From Chloroflexota bacterium (GTDB taxonomy: Bacteria > Chloroflexota > Anaerolineae > Caldilineales > Caldilineaceae), in contig JBCCHB010000104.1 in NCBI GenBank assembly GCA_039028975.1, forward strand, positions 1 through 60,392: DNA of 60,392 nucleotides. Direction: 5' to 3'. Shown here piece after piece: positions 2,768-26,362 of the stretch. A model generated the notes under the pieces. That model worked only from the letters and a program-made list of their open reading frames with translations, was not told the DNA's origin and ran no database searches. Every line of letters begins with the position of its first letter. Position 1 is the first letter of the stretch. The position numbers and the translations under genes were made by a program.

Positions 2768-3032
2768 GGCTCTATAGCCCTCCAAAGGCTAAATGAGATA
2801 GAGCCTGCTGAGTATAAGCTCATACCACCCGTCGGTGGCACCACCGGTGTTTCCTCAACAAGCAAAATGGTCGATACGTATTAGTCTGTACAAACCGTTG
2901 CTTGCTGCCAGCCCTAGAACAGGTCTGTAACTGCAAGTGCATCTATTATTTCATGGGGCGGTGGCGGGTTTCAATATCGGGCGCGATATAGCGCCAAATC
3001 TCCTATCAATAGCACACAATGTCTTTCGGGAT

Positions 3033-3389
3033 TTATTTCAGTGCCTTCCGGACAGCATCGGGTGCATTGGCGATGGCAGTGAGGAAGGCAATAGCGGTTC
3101 TGTCCGGTGAACGGCCCTGCTCCCATTCCTGAACGGTGCGCACAGACAGATGATAGGTTTCTGCAAATTGGCGTTGTGACAGCTTCAATTTTTGGCGTAT
3201 GGCCTTGATATCCGGTACAGGGCGGAAGCGTTTTAACTCCTCTTTGGTCATAGGTAGCGCGTCTGGATCTGACTGTGCTGCCTCTGTGATTTCTTCTTCA
3301 GTCATTGCATTCACCCGTTGCCAATCAGTCATGCCTGTTGAGGGAGCATGTGGATCAAGTGTGACTCTCACAATATGTTCTTCGTTCAT
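3033..3389 (-). CDS. BrnA-like antitoxin (DUF4415-like N-terminus plus XRE-type HTH).
   Basis: 'TEEEITEAAQSDPDALPMTKEELKRFRPV' (DUF4415-like) followed by 'LSQRQFAETYHLSVRTVQEWEQGRSPDRTAIAFL' (HTH). Operon order is toxin then antitoxin, as in BrnTA. Confidence 0.7.
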   Translation of the reverse strand: MNEEHIVRVTLDPHAPSTGMTDWQRVNAMTEEEITEAAQSDPDALPMTKEELKRFRPVPDIKAIRQKLKLSQRQFAETYHLSVRTVQEWEQGRSPDRTAIAFLTAIANAPDAVRKALK

Positions 3390-3630
3390 CTTTCCTTGCC
3401 CTTCGTGCTGAAATCATACGTATGCGTCCATTTCGGTAGGTGTAGACTACCAATAAGATCTGTTCCTCTACCATACCGATGATTCGATACCGCGCCTCAC
3501 GATAATCGTTTCGGCAATCCATTTCAGTGATATAGCGAGGATCAAGAAATACGTTCTTGGCATCCTGAAAATCTATGCCATGCTTCTGCATATTGGCATG
3601 GTTTTTCTTTTGATCCCACTCAAATTCCAT
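3355..3630 (-). CDS. brnT: BrnT-family (DUF497) ribonuclease toxin.
   Basis: 'MEFEWDQKKNHANMQKHGIDFQDAKNVF' and 'RMISARRARKDERRTY' match the BrnT/DUF497 signature (FEWD..K...N..KHG..F..A...F ... ISAR.A). Overlaps the downstream antitoxin by 35 nt. Confidence 0.8.
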   Translation of the reverse strand: MEFEWDQKKNHANMQKHGIDFQDAKNVFLDPRYITEMDCRNDYREARYRIIGMVEEQILLVVYTYRNGRIRMISARRARKDERRTYCESHT

Positions 3631-3688
3631 AACTGACTATACGCGTAACGCGTAGCCATTTCAATGAAAATCGACACTGCCTCATCTT

Positions 3689-4570
3689 TCACATTGGCCT
3701 GCTAACCACACCTATTGTGCTGAACACTTCTCTGAACCTTTCACTCTCTGTTCCAAGGTAAAAGAATACATTGCCATGCGTGGGGCTACGCTGCTGCTGG
3801 CCATTTTTATCGATGAAACGAATGCGATGGTGAGTAGTGCAGGAGATATAGGTACTTGCCAGCTTCATATACCATGTGGCTGCAACGGCAGGCCGGACCA
3901 GAATGACTGCCTGGGTGATGTTGCCTGCCTCATATTCCTGGATGGCCTTGCCTGTGAAAGCTGCGGCTAATCCTGCCCCGAAAGGCGGGTTGAGCCAAAG
4001 ATTTCCTTGCCAGGGTTGCTCCAACCCATTATCCTTGATGCCATACCACTGTTTGGCCCGTATCCATTGCTGGGCTACTTCATTAGAGGCAGGGTCAAGG
4101 GAGATACGCCCCATGACTTGTCTGGCCATCTCGATATATTCGGATGGTGTATACCATTCATCACTTACCGAGCTACATTTGGCCTCATGGGGTTTACGTT
4201 TTCTGGTTTCCAGCCATGCTATCTCCCGCTTGATTTTCTTCAGCTCCCGTCCATTGTCAATTAACCGTTGGAACAGTTCGATTTCAGCATCTTTCAGATA
4301 GCGGCTCTTACAGCCATTTGCAAAGGGTGTACGGCTCCGGAGTTTGCCATAACGTCCTTTTCCTTTGGCGGTCCCTCCTGGTTTTGAATATTCGATCCAA
4401 CAATCCTGTAATATGCCCTCTTGCTGGAGCTGTTCCTGTTTGCGTTTGAGTGAAGCAAGACTACGCTGAGGCATAACAACTTTCGGTGGGCAGGATTCGG
4501 GGGCAAAACAGCAATGAGGCTCTTTTCTACTCTCCTTTGTGTCACATGGCAAGCCGTCACCCGAATGCAA
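3689..4570 (-). CDS. Phage-type DNA N6-adenine methyltransferase (Dam_phage-like). Probable true start is Met at ~4474.
   Basis: 'DEWYTPSEYIEMARQVMGRISLDPASNE' then 'NLWLNPPFG', i.e. the W.TP ... LDPA ... NPPF arrangement of phage Dam methylases. Confidence 0.7.
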   Translation of the reverse strand: MHSGDGLPCDTKESRKEPHCCFAPESCPPKVVMPQRSLASLKRKQEQLQQEGILQDCWIEYSKPGGTAKGKGRYGKLRSRTPFANGCKSRYLKDAEIELFQRLIDNGRELKKIKREIAWLETRKRKPHEAKCSSVSDEWYTPSEYIEMARQVMGRISLDPASNEVAQQWIRAKQWYGIKDNGLEQPWQGNLWLNPPFGAGLAAAFTGKAIQEYEAGNITQAVILVRPAVAATWYMKLASTYISCTTHHRIRFIDKNGQQQRSPTHGNVFFYLGTESERFREVFSTIGVVSRPM

Positions 4571-5011
4571 TGGGTGATTTTCTTTGCCTTGCCATCTGAT
4601 TTGTGATTGAACGATGCTGTTGCTATTCCAGTACCCAATTGTTTGCTATGCCCCAATCTGAGCCAGACATCCCCGCATTATCATCAACGGAGCAGCCTAT
4701 ACCACAGGAAGATGATATCACTTCGCCTACAGCTCCCCTTTTGCCCCTTAGCCCTACCCGTTATGTGGAACTACAAATGAACGGACTATATGGTATTTCC
4801 CCGGAGCGGCGATATATCCGTCCTGACCTGCCCTATGACCTTTACGATGGCTTGGCGGCAGTCACGGACGACCTCATGGAAGTGGAGGAACCGGAACGAT
4901 AGCAGCGCCCTTCTAGCGCAGTTTTCACCTTTTCTGCTTGCTCTCATCGGCACGTCCCGATAGAAGGGAAAATCTTAAAGATGTTTACCCTAAACCCAGT
5001 GCGCTACCCCG

Positions 5012-5890
5012 ATGCCTTCTTCCCCTTCATGGAATCAATATAGCAAGGACTTCATCAACATCCTTGAAGGATTCCGGTATCAGCACGGTATCCGAGAAGT
5101 GTTTTCCGACTGGGTTGAGGTTGCAGCCTGTGCCATCCACCAGGAACCGTATCATTTGGGGCTGGTGATACGGGATGAAACCTTTGATATCGTTGAAGCG
5201 CAATATATGGAGGCAGTGAAGAAGTATAACAAGGAGGAATTGAATGCTTTCGCCAATCTACTTGCGATCACGAAAATGGCGCTTGGTGAGGGCTATGGTG
5301 ATTTTCTTGGGAGAACGTATATGCAGCTTGAAATCAGTAACGACCGCAGCGGTGAATTCTTTACACCTTATCCAGTGTCCCTGATGATGGCCAGAATGAC
5401 CCTGGCGGATGTAGCTGAACAACTTCAGAAGAAGTCTTTTATCACTGTATCCGAACCAGCTTCTGGTGCAGGTGGGATGCTGATCGCACTGGCAGAGGTA
5501 CTTCAGGAGAAGGGATACCAACCAAGTGAAGCCATGTTCTTTGAGGCAGTTGATGTAAGCAAACTCTGCGCCGATATGACCTACCTACAGACAGGAATTC
5601 TTGGACTGTCCGGCATGGTGAGGCATGGCAATACGCTGACGATGGAGTCATGGAGCCACCGCTTTACACCGATATGTCGTATTTTCCCATACCGTACCAA
5701 CAGATTCCTGGACAGCCTTTATACTGATCCGGCGGAAATACCCGAACCAGAACAACCACCTGTTGCCGCCAACGACAATGAATTAGAGCAAGAAACCAGC
5801 ACACCCACACCAGAGGCTACTGCTGAAGCCGAGGTACTTGATCGCCTCTCTGACCTCGATCAATCTTACGTCCAGGGAAGATTGTTCTAG
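5012..5890 (+). CDS. N6-DNA-methylase-like protein (HsdM/gamma-class AdoMet-binding core) lacking a recognisable NPPY/F/W catalytic loop. Degenerate or non-catalytic.
   Basis: 'GEFFTPYPVSLMMARM' then 'VSEPASGAGGMLIALAE' (FxTP ... EPAxGxGG). No NPP[YFW] follows, and there are no adjacent hsdS/hsdR. Confidence 0.5.
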   Translation: MPSSPSWNQYSKDFINILEGFRYQHGIREVFSDWVEVAACAIHQEPYHLGLVIRDETFDIVEAQYMEAVKKYNKEELNAFANLLAITKMALGEGYGDFLGRTYMQLEISNDRSGEFFTPYPVSLMMARMTLADVAEQLQKKSFITVSEPASGAGGMLIALAEVLQEKGYQPSEAMFFEAVDVSKLCADMTYLQTGILGLSGMVRHGNTLTMESWSHRFTPICRIFPYRTNRFLDSLYTDPAEIPEPEQPPVAANDNELEQETSTPTPEATAEAEVLDRLSDLDQSYVQGRLF

Positions 5891-6302
5891 GCTGCTTCTT
5901 CTCTTACAGCCAAGCTATCCGGGCCTGCTCAGGCTATGCTGAAGGCCCTTTGCCCCTCGTTACTTGCCAAGGTGTCAGCCTCACATTGCCATCTCTCAAA
6001 GAGCGGATGCTACATGTTGCTTAACCCCTTTTCCCTCTTGACTGCACTCGCTATTTCCCGCTCATTTTTTCTTTTATCCGTCCTTATTTGATGCTCTGGG
6101 CAGGGTATCACGTCTCATGTGATGGGTTATAAGGCAGGTATCGGTACAGATTTCTCCACGTGGTGTCCGTTGGTTCCGGCTTGTGTAGCAAACCACAGCA
6201 GACAGGCAATGCCGCGGTCCGCGCAAACGTGTTGGACATGCCTGTCTGCTGCGGCCTGCTTCTCTTCTCCTCACATACGAACCACAACATAGGAGAAAGA
6301 TC

Positions 6303-6542
6303 ATGACTGAATCAACCACCAACAAACCCGTATTCACTTTCCGACTTGGTACCCTTTCCGCCACCATCTGGCAGAACCGGACGAAGAAAGGAAGCTATTA
6401 CCGTACAGAAATGGTTCGGAATTACAGAGATACGGAAGGTGTCTGGCAAACAAGTAGCAGCTTCGGCCATGAGGAGTTGCTGAATGTGGCCAAACTAGCC
6501 GAACGTGCTGAAGACTATATCGCCCGTCTTACGCAATCCTAA
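6303..6542 (+). CDS. Hypothetical 79-aa protein.
   Basis: ORF only. Sits directly upstream of the methyltransferase gene. Confidence 0.3.
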   Translation: MTESTTNKPVFTFRLGTLSATIWQNRTKKGSYYRTEMVRNYRDTEGVWQTSSSFGHEELLNVAKLAERAEDYIARLTQS

Positions 6543-6612
6543 CAAGGCACATTTTCACAGGGCTGCACCAAAACGCAGCCCTTACTATTACACTTACTTC
6601 ACGGAGTATCTC

Positions 6613-7269
6613 ATGTTTTCGATTCACAGCTTTCTGAACCAACTCATTCACGATAATTGCATCCAGGTGATGCAGACCATGCCAAGTCACAGCATCGACC
6701 TGATCGTCACCGATCCACCCTATCTGGTGAATTACCGCTCCCGCGATGGCCGCACCATTGCCGGGGACCAGGATGATGCATGGCTGCATCCAGCCTTTGC
6801 CGAGATGTATCGGGTACTTACTCCCAACAGCCTGTGTATTTCCTTCTATGGCTGGAACAAGGTAGACCGCTTCATGGATGCATGGCGCACTGCCGGATTC
6901 ATGCCCGTAGGTCACTTCACTTGGAGCAAGCCTTATGCCTCTAGTCAAGGCTTCACCCAGGCCAGACATGAAAATGCCTATCTACTCGCTAAGGGTAACC
7001 CCAGAAAACCTGCCCATCCACCCAGAGATGTTCTGCCCTGGCACTATACCGGAAACCGACTGCACCCGACGCAAAAGCCTGTCTCTGCACTCACACCGCT
7101 GATTGAGGCATACTCTACCGAGGGTGCCATCATTCTCGATCCCTTCGCTGGTTCCGGCACTACTGCCGTTGCTGCTAGACAGTTACACCGTGCCTTTATC
7201 GGTATAGAGATGGACCGCACCTATTTCGTTAAGGCCAAAGACAGGCTGGCAAAGCATTCCGCCTCGTAA
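6613..7269 (+). CDS. DNA methyltransferase (N4-cytosine/N6-adenine, PF01555-like). The ORF track begins at 6505; the first ATG is at 6613.
   Basis: 'IDLIVTDPPYLVNY' (DPPY motif IV) then 'ILDPFAGSGTTAVAA' (AdoMet motif I), the beta-class motif order. Confidence 0.85.
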   Translation: MFSIHSFLNQLIHDNCIQVMQTMPSHSIDLIVTDPPYLVNYRSRDGRTIAGDQDDAWLHPAFAEMYRVLTPNSLCISFYGWNKVDRFMDAWRTAGFMPVGHFTWSKPYASSQGFTQARHENAYLLAKGNPRKPAHPPRDVLPWHYTGNRLHPTQKPVSALTPLIEAYSTEGAIILDPFAGSGTTAVAARQLHRAFIGIEMDRTYFVKAKDRLAKHSAS

Positions 7270-7399: not shown

Positions 7400-7699
7400 A
7401 TGGAAACAGAACATGCAACGCAGCCAACAAAGAATCAACGCATCGCTACCCGCGTGACCAGTGAGCATAAATTACTGTTTGAGCAAGCCGCTCTCCTGAA
7501 GGGGATATCCCTGACGGACTTTATGGTGAGTTCTGCCTATGATGCAGCGGTCAAAGTGCTCATGGATAGTCAGGCTGTGTTAGAGGTGGGGGCAAAAGAC
7601 AGCCATGCTTTGATTGAGCGCTTACTGCATCCCCGCCAGCCCTCTGAATTGCCTGAACTTCAGAAAGCGGCTGCACAGAATCCATGTATCAAGTCATAG
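7400..7699 (+). CDS. DUF1778 (TacA-like RHH) antitoxin with no intact GNAT toxin partner.
   Basis: 'RIATRVTSEHKLLFEQAALLKGISLTDFMVSSAYDAAVKVLMD' matches the DUF1778 family. The downstream ORF (7614-7814) is not GNAT-like. Confidence 0.65.
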   Translation: METEHATQPTKNQRIATRVTSEHKLLFEQAALLKGISLTDFMVSSAYDAAVKVLMDSQAVLEVGAKDSHALIERLLHPRQPSELPELQKAAAQNPCIKS

Positions 7700-7864
7700 T
7701 CGGTGGCGGCACAATCATTTTACACGCAGTTGCTCACACGGATGTATCCCTTTGATCAAGCAGCGATGTATTTCTATCAGAAGTATCGTTTTCTTTCCTT
7801 ACCAGTTATGTTGAATATACTGTTTATCGAGATGGCAACGATCTGGAACAAGTTTGCCGTCTGA

Positions 7865-8617
7865 ATGGATATGAGTCAATGCAAAAGTGATACGGACATA
7901 GTTATTTTTGTCTACGGTGCAATGTTATCATTACGTTCTCAATTACAGGCCAAGATTGTTTTAAAAGTCATTTCGGTCGTTTCATTTGTCATCGCATTTA
8001 TTTGGTTCGTTGTCGAACCAGGTTTCGAGCCGATCCTGGCATTTCTGGGAGGAACCGCAGCCCTAATATCCTCTTTTGTTGATTCTGGTCAACAAAGTAA
8101 CGACGATGAAACAAGCTCTAATTTGGTGAATCAAACGGTTCGGCATGACAAACAGTATGATTATTTGACATCATCGCTACACAAAAAACCAGTCGAAAGA
8201 CCCAAAATCAAGTATAGGCCCACTCAAGATAAGGTAGTGGAAGATAAGCTTTACGATGCATTCATATCGCTAAGAAACCTATCATTCATTATTCTAATAT
8301 TCTCTTTATTCATGGTATGCGTTTTGACAGCAATGATGATTGCCCGGCTAGATGGCATACCGCTGATTGGATTCATCTGGCTAGTGACCATATTTAGCAT
8401 CTTTATATTCATGATGAAGACTCTTTATCGACGAATATCTGTTACGGGTTATTATGGCAAGATAAAGCTTGTTGACACACGAGAAACCATAAAACATTCA
8501 CTACAAAAACGAACCTGGGGAAACGTATTCACTAACATTTATATGGAGGCAGTCATTTCCTTTTTGCTCAAAACTAAGAAAAGGGAAGCTGATAAGCTTA
8601 TGGGCTGGTTTGGATAG
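7865..8617 (+). CDS. Polytopic (about 4-TM) membrane protein of unknown function, translationally coupled to the downstream peptidase.
   Basis: Hydrophobic segments 'IVLKVISVVSFVIAFIWFVV', 'ILAFLGGTAALISSFV', 'LSFIILIFSLFMVCVLTAMMIA', 'IPLIGFIWLVTIFSIFIFMM'. AT-rich codon usage. Stop at 8615-8617, 37 nt before the next ATG. Confidence 0.6.
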   Translation: MDMSQCKSDTDIVIFVYGAMLSLRSQLQAKIVLKVISVVSFVIAFIWFVVEPGFEPILAFLGGTAALISSFVDSGQQSNDDETSSNLVNQTVRHDKQYDYLTSSLHKKPVERPKIKYRPTQDKVVEDKLYDAFISLRNLSFIILIFSLFMVCVLTAMMIARLDGIPLIGFIWLVTIFSIFIFMMKTLYRRISVTGYYGKIKLVDTRETIKHSLQKRTWGNVFTNIYMEAVISFLLKTKKREADKLMGWFG

Positions 8618-8654
8618 AGCCAGCAGTAGGCAGTTTGTTAGGGAGAATTGGATT

Positions 8655-10040
8655 ATGGACAGTTTCGGCAATCAAGAATTGTTATATTTTAATGGCATTA
8701 ATGGTTTTACTGGTGAATATGGATTACCACCCATGTCATACGAAGAATTTGGGGAATTTATACGAAATGAACGGCCACCTCAAAATTTGGGCGACCTTAA
8801 GTTGCGACGTCAGTTAATTGCCAAAGAGAACCTTTATACAAAGGAAGGGGTAGATCCTAAAAAATTATCAGAAGCAGGCTGGGGTATTATTTTTGCTCAT
8901 GACGGTGATCCAAAGATTAAGGAAGCCCTCACCCCCCTTCTTGACCTGCGTTCCCAACAGGCTGGACAATATTTCAAGATTTATGATGGGAACGATGGAT
9001 ACCGACCTAATGAAACAAAAACCAGATTTCTTGCTAGGCATGGAGGTGGCCCTGGCCCAGCAGATCCCGAAAAGGTTCCGTATTACCTGCTGATTGTCGG
9101 CACTCCAGAGGCTATACCCTATCAATTTCAATATTTATTGGATGTACAGTACGCTGTTGGCCGAATTAGTTTTGATACAGTACAAGAATATGAGAATTAT
9201 GCCAAGAGTGTAGTTGCTGCTGAAACAAATGGGATACGAGGTCCAGAACGTTGCTGTTTTTTTGGTACGTCCAACCAAGATGATCGAGCTACGAATTTCA
9301 GTGCAACTCACCTGGTTCAGCCTTTATACAAGGAATTTTCTGGAAATAATCCTACTTGGGAGTCTGAATCCTTCATAGGTACACGGGCTACCAAAACAAA
9401 GCTTAAAGAACTTCTTGGAGGAAAGCAGGCACCTGCCCTTTTGTTTACTGCTACTCACGGTATGGGATTCCCTAAAGAGCATTCTCTTCAGGCCAGCCAT
9501 CAAGGTGCTTTATTATGTCAAAATTGGCCAGGACCAAAAAAGTGGCAACAACCGATCCCACAAGATTTTTACTTTTCAGAAGATGATGTGATCAGTGATG
9601 CAAATATGCTTGGACTTATAATGTTTTGTTTTGCATGTTATTCGGCTGGTACCCCTCTCTATAATGATTTTGACCGAAATCAGAACGAGCCCATTGCGTC
9701 ATCTCCGTTTATTGCAGGTTTGCCAAAAAAAATTCTGGGGAATACAAGTGCTGCTTTAGCTTTTGTTGGTCACATAGAACGAGCTTGGTCATACTCATTT
9801 CTTTGGCCTGGTGTTGGCGAACACACTATTGTCTTTCAGGATGTATTGAAGCGCCTCATTGATGGTCATCCGATTGGATCGGCAATGGAGCCAATTAATC
9901 AACGTTATGCAGAACTTGCAACTGTCACAGATTATTTGAACTCCGAAGATATTGACGATAATATTGGCGTATGGACAGCAAAAAACGACTCGCGTAACTA
10001 TATTATCATCGGTGATCCTGCCGTGCGTGTATCTAGTTGA
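8655..10040 (+). CDS. Clan-CD (caspase/legumain/gingipain-like) cysteine peptidase homolog. The ORF track starts at a TTG at 8610; the ATG at 8655 has a GGGAGA RBS.
   Basis: Putative catalytic His in 'ALLFTATHGMGFP' and Cys in 'MFCFACYSAGTP', ~54 aa apart (HG ... AC.S.G, as in legumain 'DHG...EACESG'). N-terminal beta-strand-like 'YYLLIVGTPEAIP'. Confidence 0.55.
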   Translation: MDSFGNQELLYFNGINGFTGEYGLPPMSYEEFGEFIRNERPPQNLGDLKLRRQLIAKENLYTKEGVDPKKLSEAGWGIIFAHDGDPKIKEALTPLLDLRSQQAGQYFKIYDGNDGYRPNETKTRFLARHGGGPGPADPEKVPYYLLIVGTPEAIPYQFQYLLDVQYAVGRISFDTVQEYENYAKSVVAAETNGIRGPERCCFFGTSNQDDRATNFSATHLVQPLYKEFSGNNPTWESESFIGTRATKTKLKELLGGKQAPALLFTATHGMGFPKEHSLQASHQGALLCQNWPGPKKWQQPIPQDFYFSEDDVISDANMLGLIMFCFACYSAGTPLYNDFDRNQNEPIASSPFIAGLPKKILGNTSAALAFVGHIERAWSYSFLWPGVGEHTIVFQDVLKRLIDGHPIGSAMEPINQRYAELATVTDYLNSEDIDDNIGVWTAKNDSRNYIIIGDPAVRVSS

Positions 10041-10133
10041 GGTGTAACAGAGAATATGTCCACTTGCTCTGATTTGACACTGCAATCAACAGACCATGAC
10101 TGATATAAAGTAAAAATCTCACTCCTTACCAGT

Positions 10134-10664
10134 CTAATTTGGCGCAATCAGATCTGTTACATTGGCAATTGCGCAATTTATGGCATCGCTAGGCTTCAAA
10201 GTAGGATCATGGCAGACCAAATTAGTTAATTCCTCAAATAGAAGCCTGACACCAACCATGTCAATAGGAAGGTGATATGCAAAAATCTGGGAAGCCCCCG
10301 TTTTTTTACGAATATCATCAATTTCAGAGCGAAAATGTAAATCATCGCCACAAGAATTCAAGATGATGAATTGCCCTTTGAAATTATCATGTTGTTCGTT
10401 TAAATCCTTAAGTATGCCCTCATTCAAGCCAGAATTGTGCCCAGCAACGAATACAGTGTTAACTGATGCTTGAGCTAAAGCTTCGATATTTGGGTAAGTC
10501 TCTATTTTTTTTTCTTGTGCATATTTTTCGATTTGTATCCCTGCTTGTATTTGTCTATCATCCAATCTGCGCAAATCTATCCATACTGCCATATTCCATT
10601 TACCATCGGCTCCCATTAGAGGTTGTTCATTAATTAAGTTTCGAATCGTATCTGTGAGGACCAT
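10134..10664 (-). CDS. Minimal (176-aa) CHAT/caspase-like domain protein.
   Basis: 'TVFVAGHNSGLNEG' (His-Gly) and 'QFIILNSCGDD' (Cys), spaced as a caspase-fold dyad. AGGAGA RBS 8 nt upstream of the ATG. Contains an A10 tract (10504-10513). Confidence 0.5.
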   Translation of the reverse strand: MVLTDTIRNLINEQPLMGADGKWNMAVWIDLRRLDDRQIQAGIQIEKYAQEKKIETYPNIEALAQASVNTVFVAGHNSGLNEGILKDLNEQHDNFKGQFIILNSCGDDLHFRSEIDDIRKKTGASQIFAYHLPIDMVGVRLLFEELTNLVCHDPTLKPSDAINCAIANVTDLIAPN

Positions 10665-10696
10665 TTCTGATTCTTCTCCTAATTGTGTTCACTGAC

Positions 10697-16636: not shown

Positions 16637-16737
16637 ACGAGAACGATCCGATATATACATGGCACCGCTTTCATTTTCAATGAATCATGTGTTTATGCTT
16701 TGTCCTGCACCTTGGGCGAGCTGTGCCAAACGCATAT

Positions 16738-18696: not shown

Positions 18697-19080
18697 TTAT
18701 CGGATCGTTTTTACTTGACACAGACTCAGGGTCTCCCAAGATCTATCGGCAGTGACGGCGATAAACTTGCGGCTGCAAGCGACGGCAAGGCAAGCACGAT
18801 CGCCAAAGGATAAACCAGCCTGTTTCGTCATTGGGCGCAATCGTCCTGCTTCCCAGGATAACTGACGATCAAAATCAACGATATTTCCGATACCGATCAC
18901 AGAAATTATCGTCGTCACATCCGCTTCGCTCACGCCTTTCTCCAAGAGTTTTGCAATGACTTCGGAAAGGTTGACTGAGCATATGACAGATGCAGGTATC
19001 AGTGGGGTGACTGCATCACTTCCTGTCTCATCATTGAGTAGCGCAAGCACTGCGGATGCATCCAGAATAAAATCAATCAT
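18697..19080 (-). CDS. vapC: VapC PIN-domain toxin.
   Basis: 'MIDFILDASAVLALLNDE' (PIN N-terminal Asp) and 'LSFGDRACLAVA'. 8-nt overlap with the upstream antitoxin. Confidence 0.8.
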   Translation of the reverse strand: MIDFILDASAVLALLNDETGSDAVTPLIPASVICSVNLSEVIAKLLEKGVSEADVTTIISVIGIGNIVDFDRQLSWEAGRLRPMTKQAGLSFGDRACLAVACSRKFIAVTADRSWETLSLCQVKTIR

Positions 19081-19321
19081 CTCCTGCCTCTTGTCGGCGA
19101 TCCGTAATTAATTCATCGACAAGAGGTGTGTCTGGAGGCAGATATTGGCGCAGAAGCTTCTGCGCCTTTTTCACGGCTTGATCGTGTGAAATAAGCCGCA
19201 ATTGCCCATTCTCCAGGATCAGGGTCAGTGCATCGCCGATCTGTAATCCTAACTCTTTACGAATAGATGCAGGAATCACGATGCGGTTCCCGTGCATAAT
19301 TTTGGCAGCCTCAGAAATCAT
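19073..19321 (-). CDS. vapB: AbrB/SpoVT-type VapB antitoxin.
   Basis: 'GNRIVIPASIRKELGLQIGDALTLILENGQLRL' is a swapped-hairpin AbrB/MazE-like fold. Confidence 0.75.
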   Translation of the reverse strand: MISEAAKIMHGNRIVIPASIRKELGLQIGDALTLILENGQLRLISHDQAVKKAQKLLRQYLPPDTPLVDELITDRRQEAGDD

Positions 19322-19668: not shown

Positions 19669-19968
19669 ATGAAGACGTATTCTGCGATGACCAGCCGTTC
19701 CAATACCGATAAACAGCAACGTAAGATACAGATGGACAGGGAAATCCTGGACGTAGACGGAGCCGCCGCTTTGCTAGGCGTTTCCAAACGCACCATCTAT
19801 AAGCTAGTCAGTGATGGAGAACTGCCAGCCAAGAAAGTTGGCAAGGAATGGCGATTCTCCAAGAAAAAGCTTGTGGAGTGGGTCACACAGGGCGAACCAC
19901 AGGGGAATACCGATTCTGCCGAAGCGCTCCTTAAAAATCCTAATATCCGCTTTGGTTCGCGTTCATGA
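19669..19968 (+). CDS. Excisionase/AlpA-like HTH (HTH_17) DNA-binding protein.
   Basis: 'LDVDGAAALLGVSKRTIYKLVSDGELPAKKVGKEWRFSKKKLVEWV' matches the excisionase-family HTH. Confidence 0.65.
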   Translation: MKTYSAMTSRSNTDKQQRKIQMDREILDVDGAAALLGVSKRTIYKLVSDGELPAKKVGKEWRFSKKKLVEWVTQGEPQGNTDSAEALLKNPNIRFGSRS

Positions 19969-19969
19969 C

Positions 19970-20623
19970 TTATCTGTCTCTCAGCACTATCGGTAGTACT
20001 CCATCCTTATAGTAGGCTTCTGCTATCCCAAGGTATCTACGAAGCCCATAGGGAAAGGTAGCCACGGCTTCAAAGGGAATATTTCCTTCTGTCACCCGTT
20101 TAACGCCTGTTGGCCTCTTGCCACGTTTGCTAAGAGGGCCATCCACTGGTACGCGTTTCGTGGTGCTTCTTCCGGCCTCTATTCCCTCGAACCCTAACAG
20201 GGGAGCTAAACGGTTGACTTCTGTGATCCATTGCGGATCGTTATGGGAGGTGGTTCCGGTCATACCACCAAGATGGTAATGTACCGAAGCATGAATACAT
20301 TCATGCAGCAACACATCAAAGGCAAAAGACTGGCCAAGCCATTCGGATGGCACGCCCCAAGGCTCTTTGGCTGCTGTGCCGCCAAAGACGGAAGGATGCA
20401 TGATCATGGTTGGTGGATGCCTGTCACTGGCAGCGCACTGCCCCAGGCATCTCCCATGTGCGGTCAGAGAGAGAATCAGGTGCGGATATGGTAAAGCACC
20501 CTCAAACCACGCTGCATTGATGGCGTCAAAGGCTGCATAGAGCCACCTGCCCTGCTCTCCATAGAATGTCTCTGCCACCAGATGGCAAGCCTCTCTCACT
20601 GCAACTTCGTTCCTGTAACACAT
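19970..20623 (-). CDS. SprT-like zinc metalloprotease-domain protein.
   Basis: HExxH in 'VLLHECIHASVHYH'. N-terminal 'FDAINAAWFEGALPYPHLILSLTAHGRCLGQC' is a SprT-like pattern. Confidence 0.6.
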   Translation of the reverse strand: MCYRNEVAVREACHLVAETFYGEQGRWLYAAFDAINAAWFEGALPYPHLILSLTAHGRCLGQCAASDRHPPTMIMHPSVFGGTAAKEPWGVPSEWLGQSFAFDVLLHECIHASVHYHLGGMTGTTSHNDPQWITEVNRLAPLLGFEGIEAGRSTTKRVPVDGPLSKRGKRPTGVKRVTEGNIPFEAVATFPYGLRRYLGIAEAYYKDGVLPIVLRDR

Positions 20624-21191: not shown

Positions 21192-22241
21192 TTACTGATG
21201 CCTTCTCTTTTCATGGACTTTACGACAGAAGCCGATAAATGCTGCATCAGGATTACGGGGCGGCTCCGTCATCCATTCCCGCCACTCCTCCTCCAAATTA
21301 TAAATATCGCGCCCTGGGGCGGCTAAACGGGCTTTGTGATATGTATCCGGCTTCAAAGGAGGGCAGAAGGGACCAGTTTGTTTATCCTCCTCTATGCACA
21401 ATGGCATTGTGTTTCTATTTCTAAACTCCACCTGATCCGCCTGCTCATAAAAGATGACTGTGTAATCTGGTAAATGATCGTGTGCGGCCAGATGCTTTAT
21501 AGATCGGCGAAATTCTTTCAAGGAAGCTTTAGAACCAGATTTTTTATGCATTACCTCCAAAGATACAGACCACCTCTCTTGTTGGCCGCAGTGTTTTCTG
21601 GCTAATTCATAGGTTCTTCGCTCGATGGGCTTCCGTAAGCGGAAATAGTCACGATGTAGAGTCAATACTTCGCGTTCGCGTATTGCATCAAAGACCCAAT
21701 CTGATAACACAACCTCACAGTAGAGTAAGCGCCCATCTAGGCCGAATTTTCGGGCTACCGTTGCTGCTTCAATCAGGCCAAATGCTTCCCATTTCTCCTC
21801 GTCACCTCGGTGTATATTGGTGCGGATACGTGTTCCATCCAAACGATCTAAAGCCTCGCATAGAGCCTGATAATCCTTGCCAGCCGTTCCCCGATTGGTA
21901 AATTTCAGTAACTCATGTGCATTGAGACGTACTCGCTTACCAACTGGTTTATCTTCCCTAAGTCTTGCGATAACCTGAGAAATCGCATATATCAAGATAT
22001 CTTTATCGTATATGGTCGCTAATCCCTTCACACTGGGAACAACCTCTAACCAATTGCCATTATGTTCGTATCGCCGGATATTAGTCTCTGGCTTTTTCGA
22101 CAAAGAATAAAATGGGTGCTCCATTTGCGGGATAATGTCTTTCAGTACCGCATCTGCAACATCGCAGATAAACAGATCGTGCTGCGGATGACGATCCGGT
22201 AATAGTTGGTCGTCGTTGTTGTTCGGGGTTTCACACACCAT
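21192..22241 (-). CDS. repA: Plasmid replication initiator protein RepA (RPA family, PF10134-like).
   Basis: 'MEHPFYSLSKKPETNIRRYEHNGNWLEV', 'GLATIYDKDILIYAISQV' and 'LLKFTNRGTAGKDYQALCEALDRLDGTRIRTNI' match conserved RPA-family blocks. Iterons lie immediately upstream and overlap the start codon. Confidence 0.8.
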   Translation of the reverse strand: MVCETPNNNDDQLLPDRHPQHDLFICDVADAVLKDIIPQMEHPFYSLSKKPETNIRRYEHNGNWLEVVPSVKGLATIYDKDILIYAISQVIARLREDKPVGKRVRLNAHELLKFTNRGTAGKDYQALCEALDRLDGTRIRTNIHRGDEEKWEAFGLIEAATVARKFGLDGRLLYCEVVLSDWVFDAIREREVLTLHRDYFRLRKPIERRTYELARKHCGQQERWSVSLEVMHKKSGSKASLKEFRRSIKHLAAHDHLPDYTVIFYEQADQVEFRNRNTMPLCIEEDKQTGPFCPPLKPDTYHKARLAAPGRDIYNLEEEWREWMTEPPRNPDAAFIGFCRKVHEKRRHQ

Positions 22242-22484: not shown

Positions 22485-22514
22485 ACCAAATTCTAATGCC
22501 AACATAAAAATTGC

Positions 22515-22632: not shown

Positions 22633-22776
22633 AACTCATCCTGATGACTAGGCAATGACAACAGAACGCAGCACTCCATGCAGATGTGGAAATGCAAAGA
22701 GAGTCAAAAAGAAGACTGATGAAAGAAAAAATAAAGGCTTTTTTGGGGTTGTTGGTTAACAAGAGGAAGGGAATAC

Positions 22777-23769
22777 TCAAGCGATGCAGGCGGCTAGTCT
22801 GTTTTGGATGAGGAAGGCATTGTAGTCATGGAAAGAGGCATAGAGGGGAGATTGATCGATGAGGGTAAGGTCTGGCAGCTTCTCTTGTAGGTAAGAGACT
22901 AACTCTTTGCCTGTATCATCATGATCTAGATAGAGATGAACCTCCCCTACTCCCATCTCCTGGATAGTTTCCACAGCACGTTTCCTTAGAGAGGCAGAAT
23001 TGAGAATGATCACGGGCATGGGCAGTGTCCTACTGCCTCTATGTTGCATCCAGGACAGAAAATCCATAAAGCCCTCAAACATGGCAACAGCATCCGGTAT
23101 GGATGCTGTTGCGTGTTGTGGAGACAGCAGGGTGAGATCTTTCTTGCCTTGGGCGCTCTTGAAGCCACGGGAGCGGAGTTCATACCCACCGCTCCTACTG
23201 GCAAAGGCAAGAGAATAGAAGCGTCTATCACCACGTTGATAGTGCATCTCCTGTAGCCAGGGCATTGCTATCGCTTTGTCGATACCACGTTCTTTCAGAT
23301 ACTGAATTAATCCTAAACTCTGCAAAGGAAGGATTCTAAGCACCGTGAGAGCATCATCCGCACCCTCCGGGTGGGATTCTCTATCCAAACCCTCTTTCGC
23401 TGCTCTACGGGCATCTATGGCCCTTTGGTGCGCGTCCTCCCACAAAGAAGGCTGCACAGGTGCAAGCGATGGATCACCCAGGCTCGTAGAGCGGGCAATC
23501 GGTAAGGCTTCCAGCTTGCGTAAGGCTCCCGCTACATCATCCACAGCCAAGCCGTAATACAGGCACACAAATTTCAGGATGTTGCCCCCTACCCCAGACC
23601 CGTGGTCGTACCAAGCTTTCCCGTCACGGCTTATCTTGAAAGACGCATCACTTTCTTGCCGCCAAGGACTACAATACCACCACTCCCCTCGGACCTGGCG
23701 GACCGCCTCACACCCCAAAGCCGAAAGCAAGTCTCGAATATGGATGGTCTTGGCCTCTTGGGTGCGCAT
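22777..23769 (-). CDS. Primase-like protein: degenerate CHC2-type Zn-finger-like N-terminus plus C-terminal Toprim domain (plasmid TraC/DUF3991-like).
   Basis: 'WYCSPWRQESDASFKISRDGKAWYDHGSGVGGNILKFV' (primase Zn-binding-like, with cysteines largely lost). C-terminal 'VHLYLDHDDTGKELV' is a Toprim acidic motif. Confidence 0.55.
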   Translation of the reverse strand: MRTQEAKTIHIRDLLSALGCEAVRQVRGEWWYCSPWRQESDASFKISRDGKAWYDHGSGVGGNILKFVCLYYGLAVDDVAGALRKLEALPIARSTSLGDPSLAPVQPSLWEDAHQRAIDARRAAKEGLDRESHPEGADDALTVLRILPLQSLGLIQYLKERGIDKAIAMPWLQEMHYQRGDRRFYSLAFASRSGGYELRSRGFKSAQGKKDLTLLSPQHATASIPDAVAMFEGFMDFLSWMQHRGSRTLPMPVIILNSASLRKRAVETIQEMGVGEVHLYLDHDDTGKELVSYLQEKLPDLTLIDQSPLYASFHDYNAFLIQNRLAACIA

Positions 23770-24138
23770 GGAAAACTTTCTTTTTTCATGAATAATATGT
23801 TTCTCGAAGGCGTATGAGTGTTCTAACTTAAAAAATCTTTATAAACTCATGAGCATCTCCAACTCAGAAAGTGCAATTGTGACGTAATGTCAATACAATT
23901 GAGCTATTGCACTTGTGAACAACTGCACAGCAGAGCTAACATACACGTGTATTATTGTAGGCTCATATTGGATTCCTGGGATCTAATGCAAAGGGTCCCC
24001 AAGCAGATCCTTGGAATCCATCATGAGCCTTATTGTATAGCCTTTCTGCTGTATGATTGTACTAAAAAACAGTTGTTTCTCTATATAATTGCGCTATTGT
24101 GCAGTTGTATAGCAATTAATCTAACGAAGTAGAGGGCC

Positions 24139-24888
24139 ATGATTACAGCATTCATCAATCAGAAGGGAGGGGTAGGAAAAACAGCTACGGTTCTTCAAGC
24201 AGGTGGCATTCTGGCTGCTTCGGGCAAAAGGGTTCTACTTGTGGACGCAGACCCACAAGCAAGCTTATCTATCGATTTTGGTATTGAATCCCCTGATCCA
24301 GGATTAGATGACGTCATACTAGATGGTCGTTCAGTGAATGATATTATTCATCAGGTAAGAGATAATCTCGACTTAGCACCGACATCAATTCATCTGGCGC
24401 GAGCCGAACTTGAATTACAGAGCGCCTTTAATCGCGAATACCGAATGAAGGATGCATTAACCCCACTCCGAGATAAGTATGATCATGTACTCATTGATTG
24501 CCCTCCTAGTCTTGGCTTAATGGCTGTCAATAGTTTGGCAGTTAGCGACGACATCGCAATTGTCATGTCGTGTGATTATCAAGCCTTGATGAGTGTCGGG
24601 CTTCTGTATGAATCTGTGGTGGCACTCAAGGCTCAGATAAATTCAGACCTCTCAATTCGAGGACTCATTCGCACACGCTATGACGGACGCACAAATCATT
24701 CTGAATCAGTAGCACAAAAGGTAGTCGAATTATACGCCGACTATTTCCATATCTTTGATACGATTATAGGTGAACGCACAGTTATAAAGGATGCGACTGC
24801 TGCACATCAATTGATAATCGAATACCAGCGAGGTAGCGATGCTGCAAAAGACTATATCAAGCTGACAAAGGAGGTCTTCGGTGAGTAA
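24139..24888 (+). CDS. parA: ParA/Soj-family partition ATPase.
   Basis: Deviant Walker A 'INQKGGVGKTAT'. ParA-typical 'LLVDADPQASLS' and 'VLIDCPPSLG'. Confidence 0.9.
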   Translation: MITAFINQKGGVGKTATVLQAGGILAASGKRVLLVDADPQASLSIDFGIESPDPGLDDVILDGRSVNDIIHQVRDNLDLAPTSIHLARAELELQSAFNREYRMKDALTPLRDKYDHVLIDCPPSLGLMAVNSLAVSDDIAIVMSCDYQALMSVGLLYESVVALKAQINSDLSIRGLIRTRYDGRTNHSESVAQKVVELYADYFHIFDTIIGERTVIKDATAAHQLIIEYQRGSDAAKDYIKLTKEVFGE

Positions 24889-25231
24889 GAAGCAAGGTAG
24901 CCCATTAGATTCTCTGCAACGTCGTGACCTTCCAAAACTGGATGATATTAAATCTGTGCGAGAAAACAATTGTACAGTAGAACAGTTAGACAGTAAGAAC
25001 GAAGTTGCAAAAGAACCGACGCGATCTTCCAATGTGACTTTACCTATTTCTATGTGGGATTGGATCGACGACCGACATCGTGAAATCCAGCGTAGCGGAT
25101 GGCATTCTATTCGTAAAGCTGCTGTGATTCGAGCTATTATCCAAACTGCTATATCGGTTGAGGTTGATCTGACAGGTGTGACAACAGAAGAAGAAATATC
25201 TCAACGGTATAGAAGTGCAATTCAACAATAG
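24881..25231 (+). CDS. Small partition/centromere-binding protein candidate (ParG/RHH-like). Overlaps parA by 8 nt.
   Basis: Genomic position and coupling to parA. 'NVTLPISMWDWIDDRHRE' is an RHH-like beta-strand/helix. Its stop lies inside a 36-bp palindrome. Confidence 0.45.
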   Translation: MSKKQGSPLDSLQRRDLPKLDDIKSVRENNCTVEQLDSKNEVAKEPTRSSNVTLPISMWDWIDDRHREIQRSGWHSIRKAAVIRAIIQTAISVEVDLTGVTTEEEISQRYRSAIQQ

Positions 25232-25258
25232 CACAGTTGATCAACTGTGCTATTGTTG
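25223..25258. promoter_or_regulatory. Perfect 36-bp palindrome CAACAATAGCACAGTTGA|TCAACTGTGCTATTGTTG. Candidate centromere (parS/parC) or operator site.
   Basis: 18+18 nt exact reverse complement. Related CTATTG...GCAGTTG/CACAGTTG motifs recur upstream of parA at ~23900-23930 and ~24090-24115. Confidence 0.6.
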
Positions 25259-25279
25259 AATTGGCGATGTTTCAAACAT

Positions 25280-26362
25280 CTAATCCCCTTCTCTTTCGAT
25301 GAACCCGCATGTTAGGTTTATAATAGTGTTTGTATTGATATCGTAAGTGATAGAATAGGGTATATTGGAAATGGTTTTGCCGATAAAGTCTCCGTGATCA
25401 GAGCAAAAGACGATTATAGTTTCTTCGCGTAGTGATAGGCGGATCAATGCATCCAGGATTTGACCAAGAGCATCGTCAATAAAGCGAACCATGCCATAGT
25501 AGACCGCCAACAGTCCATAGATATCTTCTATGTCATCATTGCGTACACCTAGCATCTCATATAGCATCCGATTGCGTTCGGGGGCAGTGCCGTCGTTAAA
25601 TTCATCATCTCGCCAGGGCGGCAGGTCAATCTTCTCTTTGGGGAAGATAGCGGCGTATTGCTCAGGACAGACCCAAGGCTCGTGGGGATCGGGGATGGAA
25701 ACCCATAGGGCAAAGGGTTGGATATCTGATTGAATCCCAGAAAGGTTGCCAGGGTTGTCATCCGGCTGGGTATTGGATAAAACTTCCCGCCTGCTGGCAT
25801 ACTCTTCCAGAAAGCGGATGGTCTGGCCAGCCACCAATCCAGTGGAATAATCTTCAAGCGGAAAGTCGTTGGTGGCGTAGGCAAAATGGGGATTTTGGGG
25901 CGTCATCGTGCGCCGCAACTCATGGGCTGCATGGATTCCCGAAAGTGGGCGGAACCACTCCATGCCCTTGGTCTCAACCTTCTCTGGTAGGCCACTATGA
26001 GAAATTTCGCAGTAGGTATCAAAGAGAGCTAAATCCTCAGCCTGAGAAAAACAGTGGTTTTTCCCAATCAATCCCACATGGTACCCCGCCTCTTTCCATA
26101 GACGGACGCCATGCTCAACCCCCGCTGGCATAGGTGTCTCATTTCGCCGGCTACCGTGAGAGTGAGGCCACTGGCCTGTCCAAAAAGAGACCCGGGCGGG
26201 CATACAGAGCGGATGAGGCGTAAAGGCATTTTCAAAGAGAACCCCCTCGTCCGCCAAACGAGCCATATTTGGTGTCTCGCAGAAGGAATTGCCATAGAGA
26301 TGGCTGGCTGTCGCCTTCTGCTGGTCAGTCATGATTATGAGAATATTAGGTTGATTAGGCAT
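25280..26362 (-). CDS. Cys-type sulfatase (arylsulfatase family).
   Basis: 'ILIIMTDQQ' and the 'PLCMPARVSFWTGQWPHSHG' sulfatase signature (C-x-P-x-R). Confidence 0.85.
   Translation of the reverse strand: MPNQPNILIIMTDQQKATASHLYGNSFCETPNMARLADEGVLFENAFTPHPLCMPARVSFWTGQWPHSHGSRRNETPMPAGVEHGVRLWKEAGYHVGLIGKNHCFSQAEDLALFDTYCEISHSGLPEKVETKGMEWFRPLSGIHAAHELRRTMTPQNPHFAYATNDFPLEDYSTGLVAGQTIRFLEEYASRREVLSNTQPDDNPGNLSGIQSDIQPFALWVSIPDPHEPWVCPEQYAAIFPKEKIDLPPWRDDEFNDGTAPERNRMLYEMLGVRNDDIEDIYGLLAVYYGMVRFIDDALGQILDALIRLSLREETIIVFCSDHGDFIGKTISNIPYSITYDINTNTIINLTCGFIEREGD

What the first reader, a model, noticed from the sequence alone, without database searches (positions are those of the whole stretch)
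2900..25280. Plasmid backbone, integrase/excisionase and Tn3 debris juxtaposed with core replication genes: chromid or integrated plasmid?
The left block holds RepA/iterons, ParA, a primase-like gene, a tyrosine recombinase (14666-15301), an excisionase-like HTH (19669-19968), an SprT-like protease, several TA loci and Tn3 TnpA/VapC fragments. Without a break the window then continues into genes normally chromosomal (dnaB, a dnaD-like gene, a dnaI-like gene, rseP, selA, isopentenyl phosphate kinase, a heterodimeric ABC exporter). Either this is a secondary replicon (chromid/megaplasmid) that has captured essential genes, or a plasmid has integrated. The two options have different evolutionary implications.
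Basis: inference. Interest (0 to 1): 0.5.

Follow-up and report, generated by a model that had tools for sequence, protein, structure and literature searches.

The report
Plasmid block fused to Caldilineaceae chromosome
A 25-kb patchwork of plasmid genes, with an intact-looking replication and partition system, is joined to ordinary core DNA of a Caldilineaceae (Chloroflexota) bacterium at a breakpoint that cuts a sulfatase gene in half; this looks like a plasmid that recombined into the chromosome, which is a common kind of event.

Summary
The window is one whole 60,392-bp contig of an NCBI metagenome-assembled genome (MAG) labelled Chloroflexota. Its DnaB is 70-85% identical to Caldilineaceae DnaB.

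The gene inventory in the finding is essentially correct:
- RepA (PF10134) with 5-6 iterons, a primase-like gene and ParA
- a catalytic-domain-only tyrosine recombinase and an HTH_17 protein
- toxin-antitoxin (TA) loci and Tn3/VapC debris
- then selA, isopentenyl phosphate kinase, rseP, dnaB, dnaD-like, dnaI-like and ABC exporters

"Without a break" is wrong. A sharp junction lies at 25378/25379. The sulfatase gene 25280-26362(-) keeps only its first 327 homologous codons, where homologues run to about 490 aa. GC steps from 0.41 to 0.50-0.54 at the same point. A relative (L088) carries the same TerB-SNF2-sulfatase run with the sulfatase intact. The missing 3' piece is nowhere in the contig, there are no att repeats and no tRNA, and the left boundary at 2.9 kb has no support. 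The block therefore runs off the contig's left end.

The dnaB-dnaD-dnaI operon is the family's conserved housekeeping set. In one relative it sits on a 14.3-Mb contig.

Best reading (about 0.6): a mosaic plasmid recombined into the chromosome, not through the recombinase seen here. A chromid (about 0.2) cannot be excluded without a closed genome. Ordinary overall; interest is low to moderate.

The parts
3..2570 (+). NB-ARC/TPR STAND NTPase gene, open from the first base, so cut by the contig start
3033..3630 (-). BrnT toxin (3355-3630) with an HTH antitoxin (3033-3389)
3689..7269 (.). Three DNA methyltransferase genes with no partner nuclease seen: Dam-like 3689-4570(-), N6_Mtase 5012-5890(+), N4/N6 type II-like 6505-7269(+)
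7400..7699 (+). TacA antitoxin with no TacT toxin; GC drops from 0.49 to 0.40 just after it
7751..13300 (.). Low-GC (0.40) cargo segment: membrane protein, C25-peptidase-like protein, and unknown proteins of 176 and 654 aa
13544..13989 (-). Tn3-family transposase remnant, about 0.45 kb of a gene of about 3 kb
14004..14237 (-). VapC/PIN C-terminal fragment (weak)
14479..15301 (+). Small WGR-domain ORF (14479-14730) followed by a catalytic-domain-only tyrosine recombinase (14723-15301, 192 aa as called by NCBI)
15875..18327 (.). Low-GC (0.42) segment: DUF2971/PDC-S31-like gene (+) and an EAD1-HTH-CHAT protein (-)
18697..19321 (-). VapB (MazE-type) and VapC (PIN) toxin-antitoxin pair
19669..20623 (.). 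HTH_17/excisionase-family DNA-binding protein (+) and a SprT-like HExxH protein (-)
21192..22241 (-). RepA, replication initiator protein A (PF10134). Full length, 65% identical to RepA of small alphaproteobacterial plasmids and 90% to L085
22220..22372 (-). Iteron array: 5 copies plus one degenerate copy of GGTGTGTRAAACCCCGAA. The same arrangement is found in L085, and the motif recurs next to RepA relatives in 9 of 10 metagenome loci
22777..23769 (-). Primase-like protein (CHC2 Zn-ribbon plus Toprim_2)
23897..24111 (.). GCTATTG-containing repeats upstream of parA, related to the arms of the 46-bp palindrome. Inferred par operator or centromere sites
   Evidence: (I8); inference
24139..25231 (+). 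ParA (24139-24888) with an overlapping 116-aa partner that matches no family. A ParB/ParG-like role is inferred from position only
25218..25263 (.). Perfect 46-bp palindrome at the end of the par locus. The k=31 Logan contigs end here
   Evidence: (I2)
25264..25378 (.). 115 nt, GC 0.35, with no homology to sulfatase genes; the last stretch of the incoming DNA. The breakpoint lies between 25378 and 25379
25280..26362 (-). 3'-truncated sulfatase gene. Only codons 1-327 are homologous, and it lacks the C-terminal SGSH_C domain present in nearly all listed homologues of about 490 aa
26395..29314 (-). SNF2 helicase and TerB-domain genes, syntenic with relative L088 (84% and 69% aa identity); native flank
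42300..46245 (+). selA, isopentenyl phosphate kinase, rseP (M50/PDZ)
52399..56195 (+). dnaB, dnaD-like (DnaB_2 domain) and dnaI/dnaC-like (two P-loop regions) operon, conserved in all 10 closest Caldilineaceae genomes

Best explanation
The left 25.4 kb of this contig is a mosaic, plasmid-derived block. It has been physically recombined onto native Caldilineaceae DNA, most probably the main chromosome, at a single breakpoint (25378/25379) inside a sulfatase gene.

Shown:
- The block carries a complete-looking theta-type replicon: full-length RepA of the PF10134 family, its canonical iteron array and a primase-like gene.
- It carries a partition cassette: ParA, a small partner protein, and palindromic or repeated sites.
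- It also carries TA loci, three DNA methyltransferase genes with no partner nuclease seen, conflict-system genes of lower GC, and transposon debris.
- The sulfatase gene on the native side has lost about 160 codons from its 3' end exactly where composition changes.
- A relative has the same TerB-SNF2-sulfatase run with the gene intact.
- The dnaB-dnaD-dnaI operon 27 kb away is the family's conserved housekeeping operon.

Inferred:
- The event was an illegitimate or transposition-associated recombination (a plasmid-chromosome cointegrate, possibly with a deletion), not site-specific integration by the small recombinase present.
- The other junction lies beyond the contig's left end.
- In the integrated state the chromosome's own origin replicates the block. 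RepA and the iterons are then either repressed or redundant.
For: - Truncation: the window's sulfatase is 360 aa, against 427-517 aa (mostly about 490) in 117 of 119 listed homologues, which also carry PF16347. Homology stops after ...VFCSDHGDFIG, at window 25379. No 3' fragment occurs elsewhere in the contig.
- Synteny: L088 has TerB-SNF2(84%)-sulfatase(74%, full length).
- Composition: GC is 0.41 left of the breakpoint and 0.50-0.54 right of it. Tetranucleotide correlation to the 33.5-60.4 kb reference is 0.56-0.78 for 1-25 kb, against 0.79-0.92 for the right side.
- Core genes: DnaB is 70-85% identical to Caldilineaceae DnaB. The three-gene operon is conserved in 10 of 10 closest genomes, including one at 2.3 Mb on a 14.28-Mb contig. 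No second housekeeping-type dnaB could be traced to this MAG.
- Independent assembly: Logan k=31 contigs of the same run reproduce 112-24215 (the mapped 13,024-bp locus matches 11192-24215 exactly; the start at 112 is inferred from the contig's length), 24186-25247 and 25234-28826 exactly. They break only at a ParA Walker-A 30-mer and at the centre of the 46-bp palindrome, which is what a de Bruijn graph does at a palindrome longer than k. The contig starting at 25234 crosses the breakpoint without branching.
- Mosaic and decay: orphan TacA, a 0.45-kb Tn3 remnant, a VapC fragment and five GC segments.
Against: - The replication and partition modules look intact. The iteron array keeps the same layout as in a 90%-identical relative. 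That is also what an autonomous replicon would show.
- Only one junction is visible. The left 7.7 kb does not return clearly to host-like composition (correlation 0.73-0.77), so no chromosomal DNA is demonstrated on the far side.
- Topology, copy number and the rest of the genome are unavailable, because the MAG is not in the searchable genome set.
- Synteny with relatives is limited to 3-gene stretches.
Confidence: 0.6

Rival explanations
1. Chromid or megaplasmid. The contig belongs to a secondary replicon driven by RepA/iterons and ParA. That replicon acquired a chromosomal segment, cut within the sulfatase gene, and now carries the organism's only dnaB-dnaD-dnaI, rseP, selA and isopentenyl phosphate kinase genes.
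For: - RepA is full length, the iterons are canonical, and the primase-like gene and ParA are intact.
- The junction is equally compatible with capture of chromosomal DNA by a plasmid.
- The Logan contig crosses the breakpoint without a branch, so no second, intact copy of that sulfatase is abundant in the sample. The segment is therefore single copy.
- No second housekeeping dnaB was found.
Against: - In relatives the dnaB operon lies on very large contigs (14.28 Mb, and 0.7-0.78 Mb).
- The plasmid block differs from the core-gene block in GC and tetranucleotides, whereas chromids usually match their chromosome (chromid criteria from Harrison et al. 2010, recalled from memory).
- Relocation of a sole replicative helicase operon to a plasmid is rare a priori.
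- The contig shows no sign of being circular.
Confidence: 0.2
2. Site-specific integrative element. The block is an integrated mobile element inserted and excised by its own tyrosine recombinase and excisionase at att sites.
For: - A Phage_integrase catalytic domain.
- A protein with the TIGR01764 'excise' domain.
Against: - The recombinase is 192-211 aa, catalytic domain only. It sits mid-block beside Tn3 and VapC debris and 4.4 kb from the HTH_17 gene.
- No direct repeats link the 25.2-25.4 kb junction to any left site beyond chance-level matches of 16-18 nt.
- No tRNA, tmRNA or Rfam hit.
- The target gene is truncated, not split with both halves present.
Confidence: 0.08
3. Assembly chimera. 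A plasmid contig and a chromosomal contig from the metagenome were wrongly joined at or near the 46-bp palindrome.
For: - The window is a short-read MAG contig.
- The k=31 assembly cannot bridge the palindrome.
Against: - The Logan contig 25234-28826 carries the palindrome's right arm, the 115-nt non-sulfatase stretch and the truncated sulfatase as one unbranched piece.
- The contig 24186-25247 carries parA, its partner gene and the complementary arm. Both attach to the same palindromic node.
- A mis-join would need two loci sharing at least 30 nt of this palindrome. It would still leave a truncated sulfatase fused to foreign AT-rich DNA.
Confidence: 0.07

Closest known systems
RepA (PF10134, 'replication initiator protein A') iteron plasmids of Alphaproteobacteria, for example the 12-40 kb plasmids of Rhodobacteraceae and Acetobacteraceae
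   Same: RepA is 64-66% identical over 96-100% of its length. An iteron array lies directly upstream of repA. The iteron motif GGTGTGTRAAACCCCGAA recurs beside RepA relatives of 57-78% identity in metagenome contigs with GC 0.38-0.61.
   Different: - Here it is embedded in a contig of a Chloroflexota (Caldilineaceae) genome.
- It is linked to a primase-like gene whose relatives are on Bacteroidota plasmids (about 32%) and to a ParA at most 39% identical to any PLSDB ParA.
- No relaxase or T4SS is visible, unlike relatives L089 and L090.
- Only RepA is shared with those plasmids.
Chromosomally integrated plasmids and plasmid-chromosome cointegrates, for example Hfr-type integration of F (recalled from memory)
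   Same: A complete plasmid replication and partition set lies inside otherwise chromosomal DNA. The junction is not an att site and disrupts a host gene.
   Different: No flanking IS or transposon copies are visible at the junction. Only one junction is on the contig, so the integrated state is inferred, not shown.
Chromids (Harrison et al. 2010 definition, recalled from memory)
   Same: A plasmid-type replication system is on the same molecule as core genes that are chromosomal in relatives.
   Different: Composition of the plasmid block does not match the core block. A separate replicon is not shown. The core genes involved (the replicative helicase operon) are not known to me to lie on chromids.
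Logan contig L085 (run SRR23287132), an unnamed plasmid-like contig of 9.6 kb
   Same: Same order ParA(-), primase-like(+), iterons, RepA(+). RepA is 90% identical, the iteron region 78% at nucleotide level, the primase-like protein 42%. GC 0.488 and tetranucleotide correlation 0.83 to the window's core block.
   Different: The rest of the contig is unrelated. It has no terminal overlap, so it is not shown to be circular. Its host is unknown.

Membership tests
Iteron-type theta replicon with RPA-family (PF10134) initiator | Full-length RepA of the family | tested here: met
   PF10134, E 3.5e-82, profile positions 4-228 of 228. 349 aa, against 335-373 aa in 7472 homologues.
Iteron-type theta replicon with RPA-family (PF10134) initiator | Array of directly repeated iterons next to repA | tested here: met
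   Five 20-nt copies at 85-100% identity at 22220-22372. Same layout in L085. The same motif lies beside RepA relatives in 9 of 10 metagenome loci.
Iteron-type theta replicon with RPA-family (PF10134) initiator | Autonomous replication in this host | not testable with these tools
   Needs a closed genome, copy number or an experiment.
Type I (ParA Walker-type) plasmid partition cassette | ParA ATPase plus an adjacent small centromere-binding protein and repeated or palindromic sites | tested here: inconclusive
   ParA is clear (AAA_31, E 2.4e-45). The 116-aa partner matches no family. The 46-bp palindrome and GCTATTG repeats flank the operon, but the palindrome motif is not enriched beyond those sites.
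Chromid | Plasmid-type replication and partition genes on the replicon | tested here: met
Chromid | Carries core genes that are chromosomal in related species | tested here: met
   The dnaB-dnaD-dnaI operon is conserved in 10 of 10 Caldilineaceae genomes, and lies on a 14.28-Mb contig in one.
Chromid | Nucleotide composition close to the chromosome throughout | tested here: not met
   The 1-25.4 kb block has GC 0.456 with segments at 0.40-0.42, and tetranucleotide correlation 0.56-0.78. The core block has GC 0.493 and correlation 0.79-0.92.
Chromid | Is a separate replicon from the main chromosome | not testable with these tools
   Single MAG contig with no terminal overlap.
Integrase-mediated integrative element (ICE, IME or prophage-like) | Full-length tyrosine integrase with an N-terminal DNA-binding domain at an element end | tested here: not met
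   192-211 aa, catalytic domain only, aligned to the C-terminal halves of Xer and integron integrase models and far below their cutoffs. It sits mid-block.
Integrase-mediated integrative element (ICE, IME or prophage-like) | Flanking direct repeats (attL/attR), often at a tRNA or tmRNA gene | tested here: not met
   No repeat pairs with the 25.2-25.4 kb junction beyond 16-18-nt chance matches. No tRNA or tmRNA and no Rfam hit. The left end may lie off the contig.
Tn3-family transposon | Intact TnpA of about 1000 aa with terminal inverted repeats | tested here: not met
   Only about 445 nt match Tn3 transposase genes, at 66-77%. The Pfam hit covers profile positions 276-362 of 389. No matching inverted repeats.

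The most novel reading that the evidence does not exclude
The contig is part of a chromid or megaplasmid of a large-genome Caldilineaceae bacterium. It is replicated from a proteobacterial-type RepA/iteron origin and carries the organism's only replicative helicase and loader operon (dnaB-dnaD-dnaI), together with rseP, selA and isopentenyl phosphate kinase. That would be a recent relocation of core replication genes onto a plasmid-type replicon in Chloroflexota.
Probability: 0.15. Interest if true: 0.7.

Novelty: new member of a known kind. Interest (0 to 1): 0.3.

Why it matters
If the favoured reading holds, this is one more plasmid-chromosome recombination event. Its modest value has three parts:
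- It puts a RepA/iteron replicon best known from Alphaproteobacteria inside a Chloroflexota genome, which is evidence of cross-phylum plasmid traffic into a group with few described plasmids.
- It supplies a precisely mapped junction.
- It warns that plasmid-marker genes on MAG contigs do not identify plasmids.

Only the less likely chromid reading would bear on how essential replication genes move to secondary replicons.

Tried and rejected
- Megablast of 20-44.9 kb against PLSDB gave only a 91-nt hit, so this is not a known plasmid.
- A search for att-like direct or inverted repeats across 1-32 kb found only the iterons, the palindrome and chance-level 16-30-nt pairs.
- tRNA/tmRNA and Rfam scans found nothing.
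- Circularity test: no terminal overlap in the window or in L085.
- Search for the missing sulfatase 3' half elsewhere in the window: absent.
- 'Empty site' hunt in relatives: only L088 is syntenic. The contexts of P0124 (529-kb contig) and P0128 (14.28-Mb contig) are unrelated and probably paralogues.
- Synteny around dnaB in 10 Caldilineaceae genomes: only the 3-gene operon is conserved, so the flanks are uninformative.
- Second dnaB copy: I tried to trace NCBI hits to the same MAG by accession range (MEM713xxxx). None could be assigned, and most carry no accession, so the result is inconclusive.
- Cluster look-ups found no mate at 90% identity or more for the backbone proteins, so there is no sister copy of the element in the collections.
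- PADLOC gave only generic methyltransferase, CHAT, PDC-S31 and SNF2 hits, and no complete defence system.
- Literature: no paper cites the run, and nothing relevant links Caldilineaceae and plasmids.
- I considered reading the GC-skew minimum near 34-35 kb as an origin. I rejected this because it coincides with a switch in gene orientation.


Full report
**Source of the window.**
The window is a complete contig. The RepA protein and several others occur in NCBI as products of a "MAG: Chloroflexota bacterium" whose longest contig carrying them is exactly 60,392 bp (accessions MEM7132094-MEM7132133, locus tags AAF702_376xx-377xx). An independent k=31 assembly of run SRR22824298 (Logan) contains contigs identical to four stretches of the window:
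- 112-24215 (the mapped locus matches 11192-24215; the start at 112 is inferred from the contig's length)
- 24186-25247
- 25234-28826
- 51039-58268

DnaB is 70-85% identical to DnaB of Caldilineaceae, including Litorilinea and Caldilinea, so the host is a member of that family. The genome itself is not in the searchable species set; the best DnaB match there is 78%.

**Check of the observation.**
- Left block:
  - an NB-ARC/TPR STAND gene cut by the contig start
  - a BrnT/BrnA-like pair
  - three DNA methyltransferase genes with no partner nuclease seen
  - an orphan TacA
  - a low-GC segment with a C25-peptidase-like protein and unknown proteins
  - a Tn3 transposase remnant of about 0.45 kb and a weak VapC fragment
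  - a WGR ORF followed by a tyrosine recombinase that is only a catalytic domain (192-211 aa)
  - DUF2971/PDC-S31 and EAD1-HTH-CHAT genes
  - VapBC, an HTH_17 'excise'-domain protein, and a sub-threshold SprT-like protein with an HECIH motif
- Plasmid core:
  - RepA (PF10134, E 3.5e-82)
  - five good and one degenerate iteron, GGTGTGTRAAACCCCGAA, at 22220-22372
  - a CHC2/Toprim primase-like gene
  - ParA with an overlapping 116-aa partner
- Right block:
  - sulfatase, SNF2 and TerB genes, followed by transport and metabolic genes
  - selA, isopentenyl phosphate kinase (NF040647, above cutoff) and rseP
  - dnaB, a DnaD-like gene, an IstB/DnaC-like gene with two P-loop regions, and two ABC exporter genes

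The sulfatase gene next to the par locus (25280-26362, minus strand) encodes 360 aa. Of the 119 homologues listed besides the contig's own copy, mostly Caldilineaceae at 60-74% identity, 117 are 427-517 aa (mostly about 490) and carry an extra C-terminal domain, PF16347.

Alignments show that homology runs through ...VFCSDHGDFIG (residue 327) and stops. Homologues continue EHG(M/A)QCKGGVFYDC..., whereas the window reads KTISNIPYS... and hits a stop 33 codons later. At DNA level the match to the relative L088 ends at window 25379.

Next to the breakpoint on the plasmid side lie 115 nt of GC 0.35 (25264-25378). Beyond them is a perfect 46-bp palindrome (25218-25263) at the end of the par operon. 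GC in 400-nt windows steps from 0.41 to 0.50-0.54 at this point.

Tetranucleotide correlation to the 33.5-60.4 kb reference changes at the same place:

| Region | Correlation |
|---|---|
| 1-25 kb | 0.56-0.78 |
| 25-33 kb | 0.83-0.91 |
| within the reference | 0.79-0.92 |

L088, a 12.4-kb contig from another run, carries TerB(69%)-SNF2(84%)-sulfatase(74%) in the same order with a full-length 491-aa sulfatase. The native state of this locus is therefore known, and here it has been cut. No trace of the missing 3' part exists anywhere in the contig.

**Is the junction an assembly artefact?**
The Logan contigs end at 25247 and begin at 25234. Their terminal 30-mers are reverse complements of each other inside the palindrome. 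That is the expected behaviour of a k=31 de Bruijn graph at a palindrome longer than k. The contig that starts at 25234 runs unbranched through the 115-nt stretch and the breakpoint into the sulfatase and SNF2 genes.

The truncated gene is therefore fused to foreign DNA in the reads, whatever the MAG assembler did. No abundant alternative continuation, such as an intact copy of that sulfatase, exists in the sample. I rate a chimera at about 0.07.

**What the left block is.**
It is a mosaic. Five segments differ in GC:

| Segment | GC |
|---|---|
| 1-7750 | 0.498 |
| 7751-13300 | 0.401 |
| 13301-15400 | 0.487 |
| 15401-18690 | 0.419 |
| 18691-25378 | 0.460 |

The TacA antitoxin has lost its toxin exactly at the first GC drop, and the Tn3 and VapC pieces are debris.

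The backbone itself is composite:
- RepA is 64-66% identical to RepA of small alphaproteobacterial plasmids, 70-72% to RepA on relaxase/T4CP-bearing metagenomic plasmids that share nothing else with the window, and 90% to L085.
- L085 has the same ParA-primase-iteron-RepA order.
- The primase-like gene resembles Bacteroidota plasmid genes at about 32%.
- ParA is at most 39% identical to any PLSDB ParA.
- The iteron motif is conserved next to RepA relatives in 9 of 10 metagenome loci with GC 0.38-0.61.

The RepA/iteron unit is thus a widely travelled replication cassette, and the copy here looks canonical and intact.

**Chromid or integrated plasmid?**
For a chromosomal location:
- The dnaB-dnaD-like-dnaI-like operon is conserved in all ten closest Caldilineaceae genomes, and also in a Promineifilaceae genome. 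In one relative it lies at 2.3 Mb on a 14.28-Mb contig. Other orthologues sit on contigs of 0.7-0.78 Mb.
- The window's DnaB is an ordinary orthologue of these. No second housekeeping-type copy could be traced to the same MAG, although that test is weak.
- The plasmid block is compositionally foreign to the core block, unlike typical chromids.
- The junction destroys a native gene.

For an autonomous replicon:
- The replication and partition modules are intact.
- Only one junction is visible.
- The leftmost 7.7 kb does not clearly return to host composition.
- The contig ends give no topology, as there is no terminal overlap.

A plasmid capturing chromosomal DNA and a plasmid inserting into the chromosome give the same junction. 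Relocation of a sole replicative-helicase operon is rare a priori. I therefore put integration or cointegration at about 0.6 and a chromid at about 0.2.

**How the join was made.**
The route suggested by the finding (integrase, excisionase, att) is not supported:
- The recombinase lacks an N-terminal DNA-binding domain. It lies in the middle of the block beside transposon debris and 4.4 kb from the HTH_17 gene.
- No repeat pairs with the junction.
- There is no tRNA, tmRNA or Rfam hit.
- The target gene is truncated rather than split into two recoverable halves.

The most likely mechanism is illegitimate or transposition-associated recombination, possibly with a deletion. This step is inference. 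The left boundary proposed at 2.9 kb has no support, and the element extends to, and probably beyond, the contig start.

**Verdict.**
The inventory is right, 'without a break' is wrong, and the integrated-plasmid option is favoured but not proven. This is a new example of a known kind of event. It has some interest as a proteobacterial-type RepA replicon inside a Chloroflexota genome, and as a caution for plasmid calling in MAGs. Interest 0.3.

Noticed in passing
window 54690-56195 (+); also L003-L012 and L014: The dnaI/dnaC-like helicase-loader gene downstream of dnaB and dnaD-like has two IstB/AAA+ P-loop regions in one protein: two Pfam stretches, with a second P-loop near residues 341-402. 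NCBI/Logan call it at 431 aa. This doubled form is conserved across Caldilineaceae and in a Promineifilaceae genome, where tblastn also gives an internally shifted self-like hit.
   Followed up: partly
L009, L010, L012; proteins P0253-P0262, P0267, P0338: Many Caldilineaceae DnaB orthologues carry an intein (about 1 kb inserted before the last 66 residues; Pfam PF14890 and PF14528; proteins of 590-790 aa). The window's DnaB (468 aa) has none.
   Followed up: no
window 26395-29314 (-) and L088 6800-9747: An SNF2-family helicase (strong PADLOC matches to DrmD and BrxH models) is paired with a TerB-domain protein, and the pair is conserved between two Caldilineaceae relatives. No other DISARM or BREX components are adjacent.
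   Followed up: partly
window 29323-31089 (-): A bacterial SH3-domain protein followed by a 463-aa protein with weak matches to the major-vault-protein shoulder and repeat domains (PF11978, E 6.6e-06; PF17795, below cutoff).
   Followed up: no
window 14479-15301 (+): A small WGR-domain ORF directly precedes, and overlaps, a catalytic-domain-only tyrosine recombinase. I cannot place this pairing.
   Followed up: no
window 60255-60392: After the last ABC exporter gene, the contig's right end holds three short GC-rich hairpin-like inverted repeats in tandem (for example CCACCGGCAGAGCCGGTGG and GCCCCCAATGGGGGC). These may be repeated elements that stopped the assembly.
   Followed up: no
window 24186-24215: The independent k=31 assembly breaks inside the ParA Walker-A coding region (NQKGGVGKT). 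This suggests that at least one other ParA gene with an identical 30-mer is present in the same sample.
   Followed up: no
window 33630-60254: All 22 or so genes over 27 kb lie on the + strand and all genes from 25.3 to 33.4 kb lie on the - strand, giving a divergence point near 33.5 kb. The cumulative GC-skew minimum falls just to its right, at about 35-36 kb. I took this as operon orientation, not an origin.
   Followed up: partly
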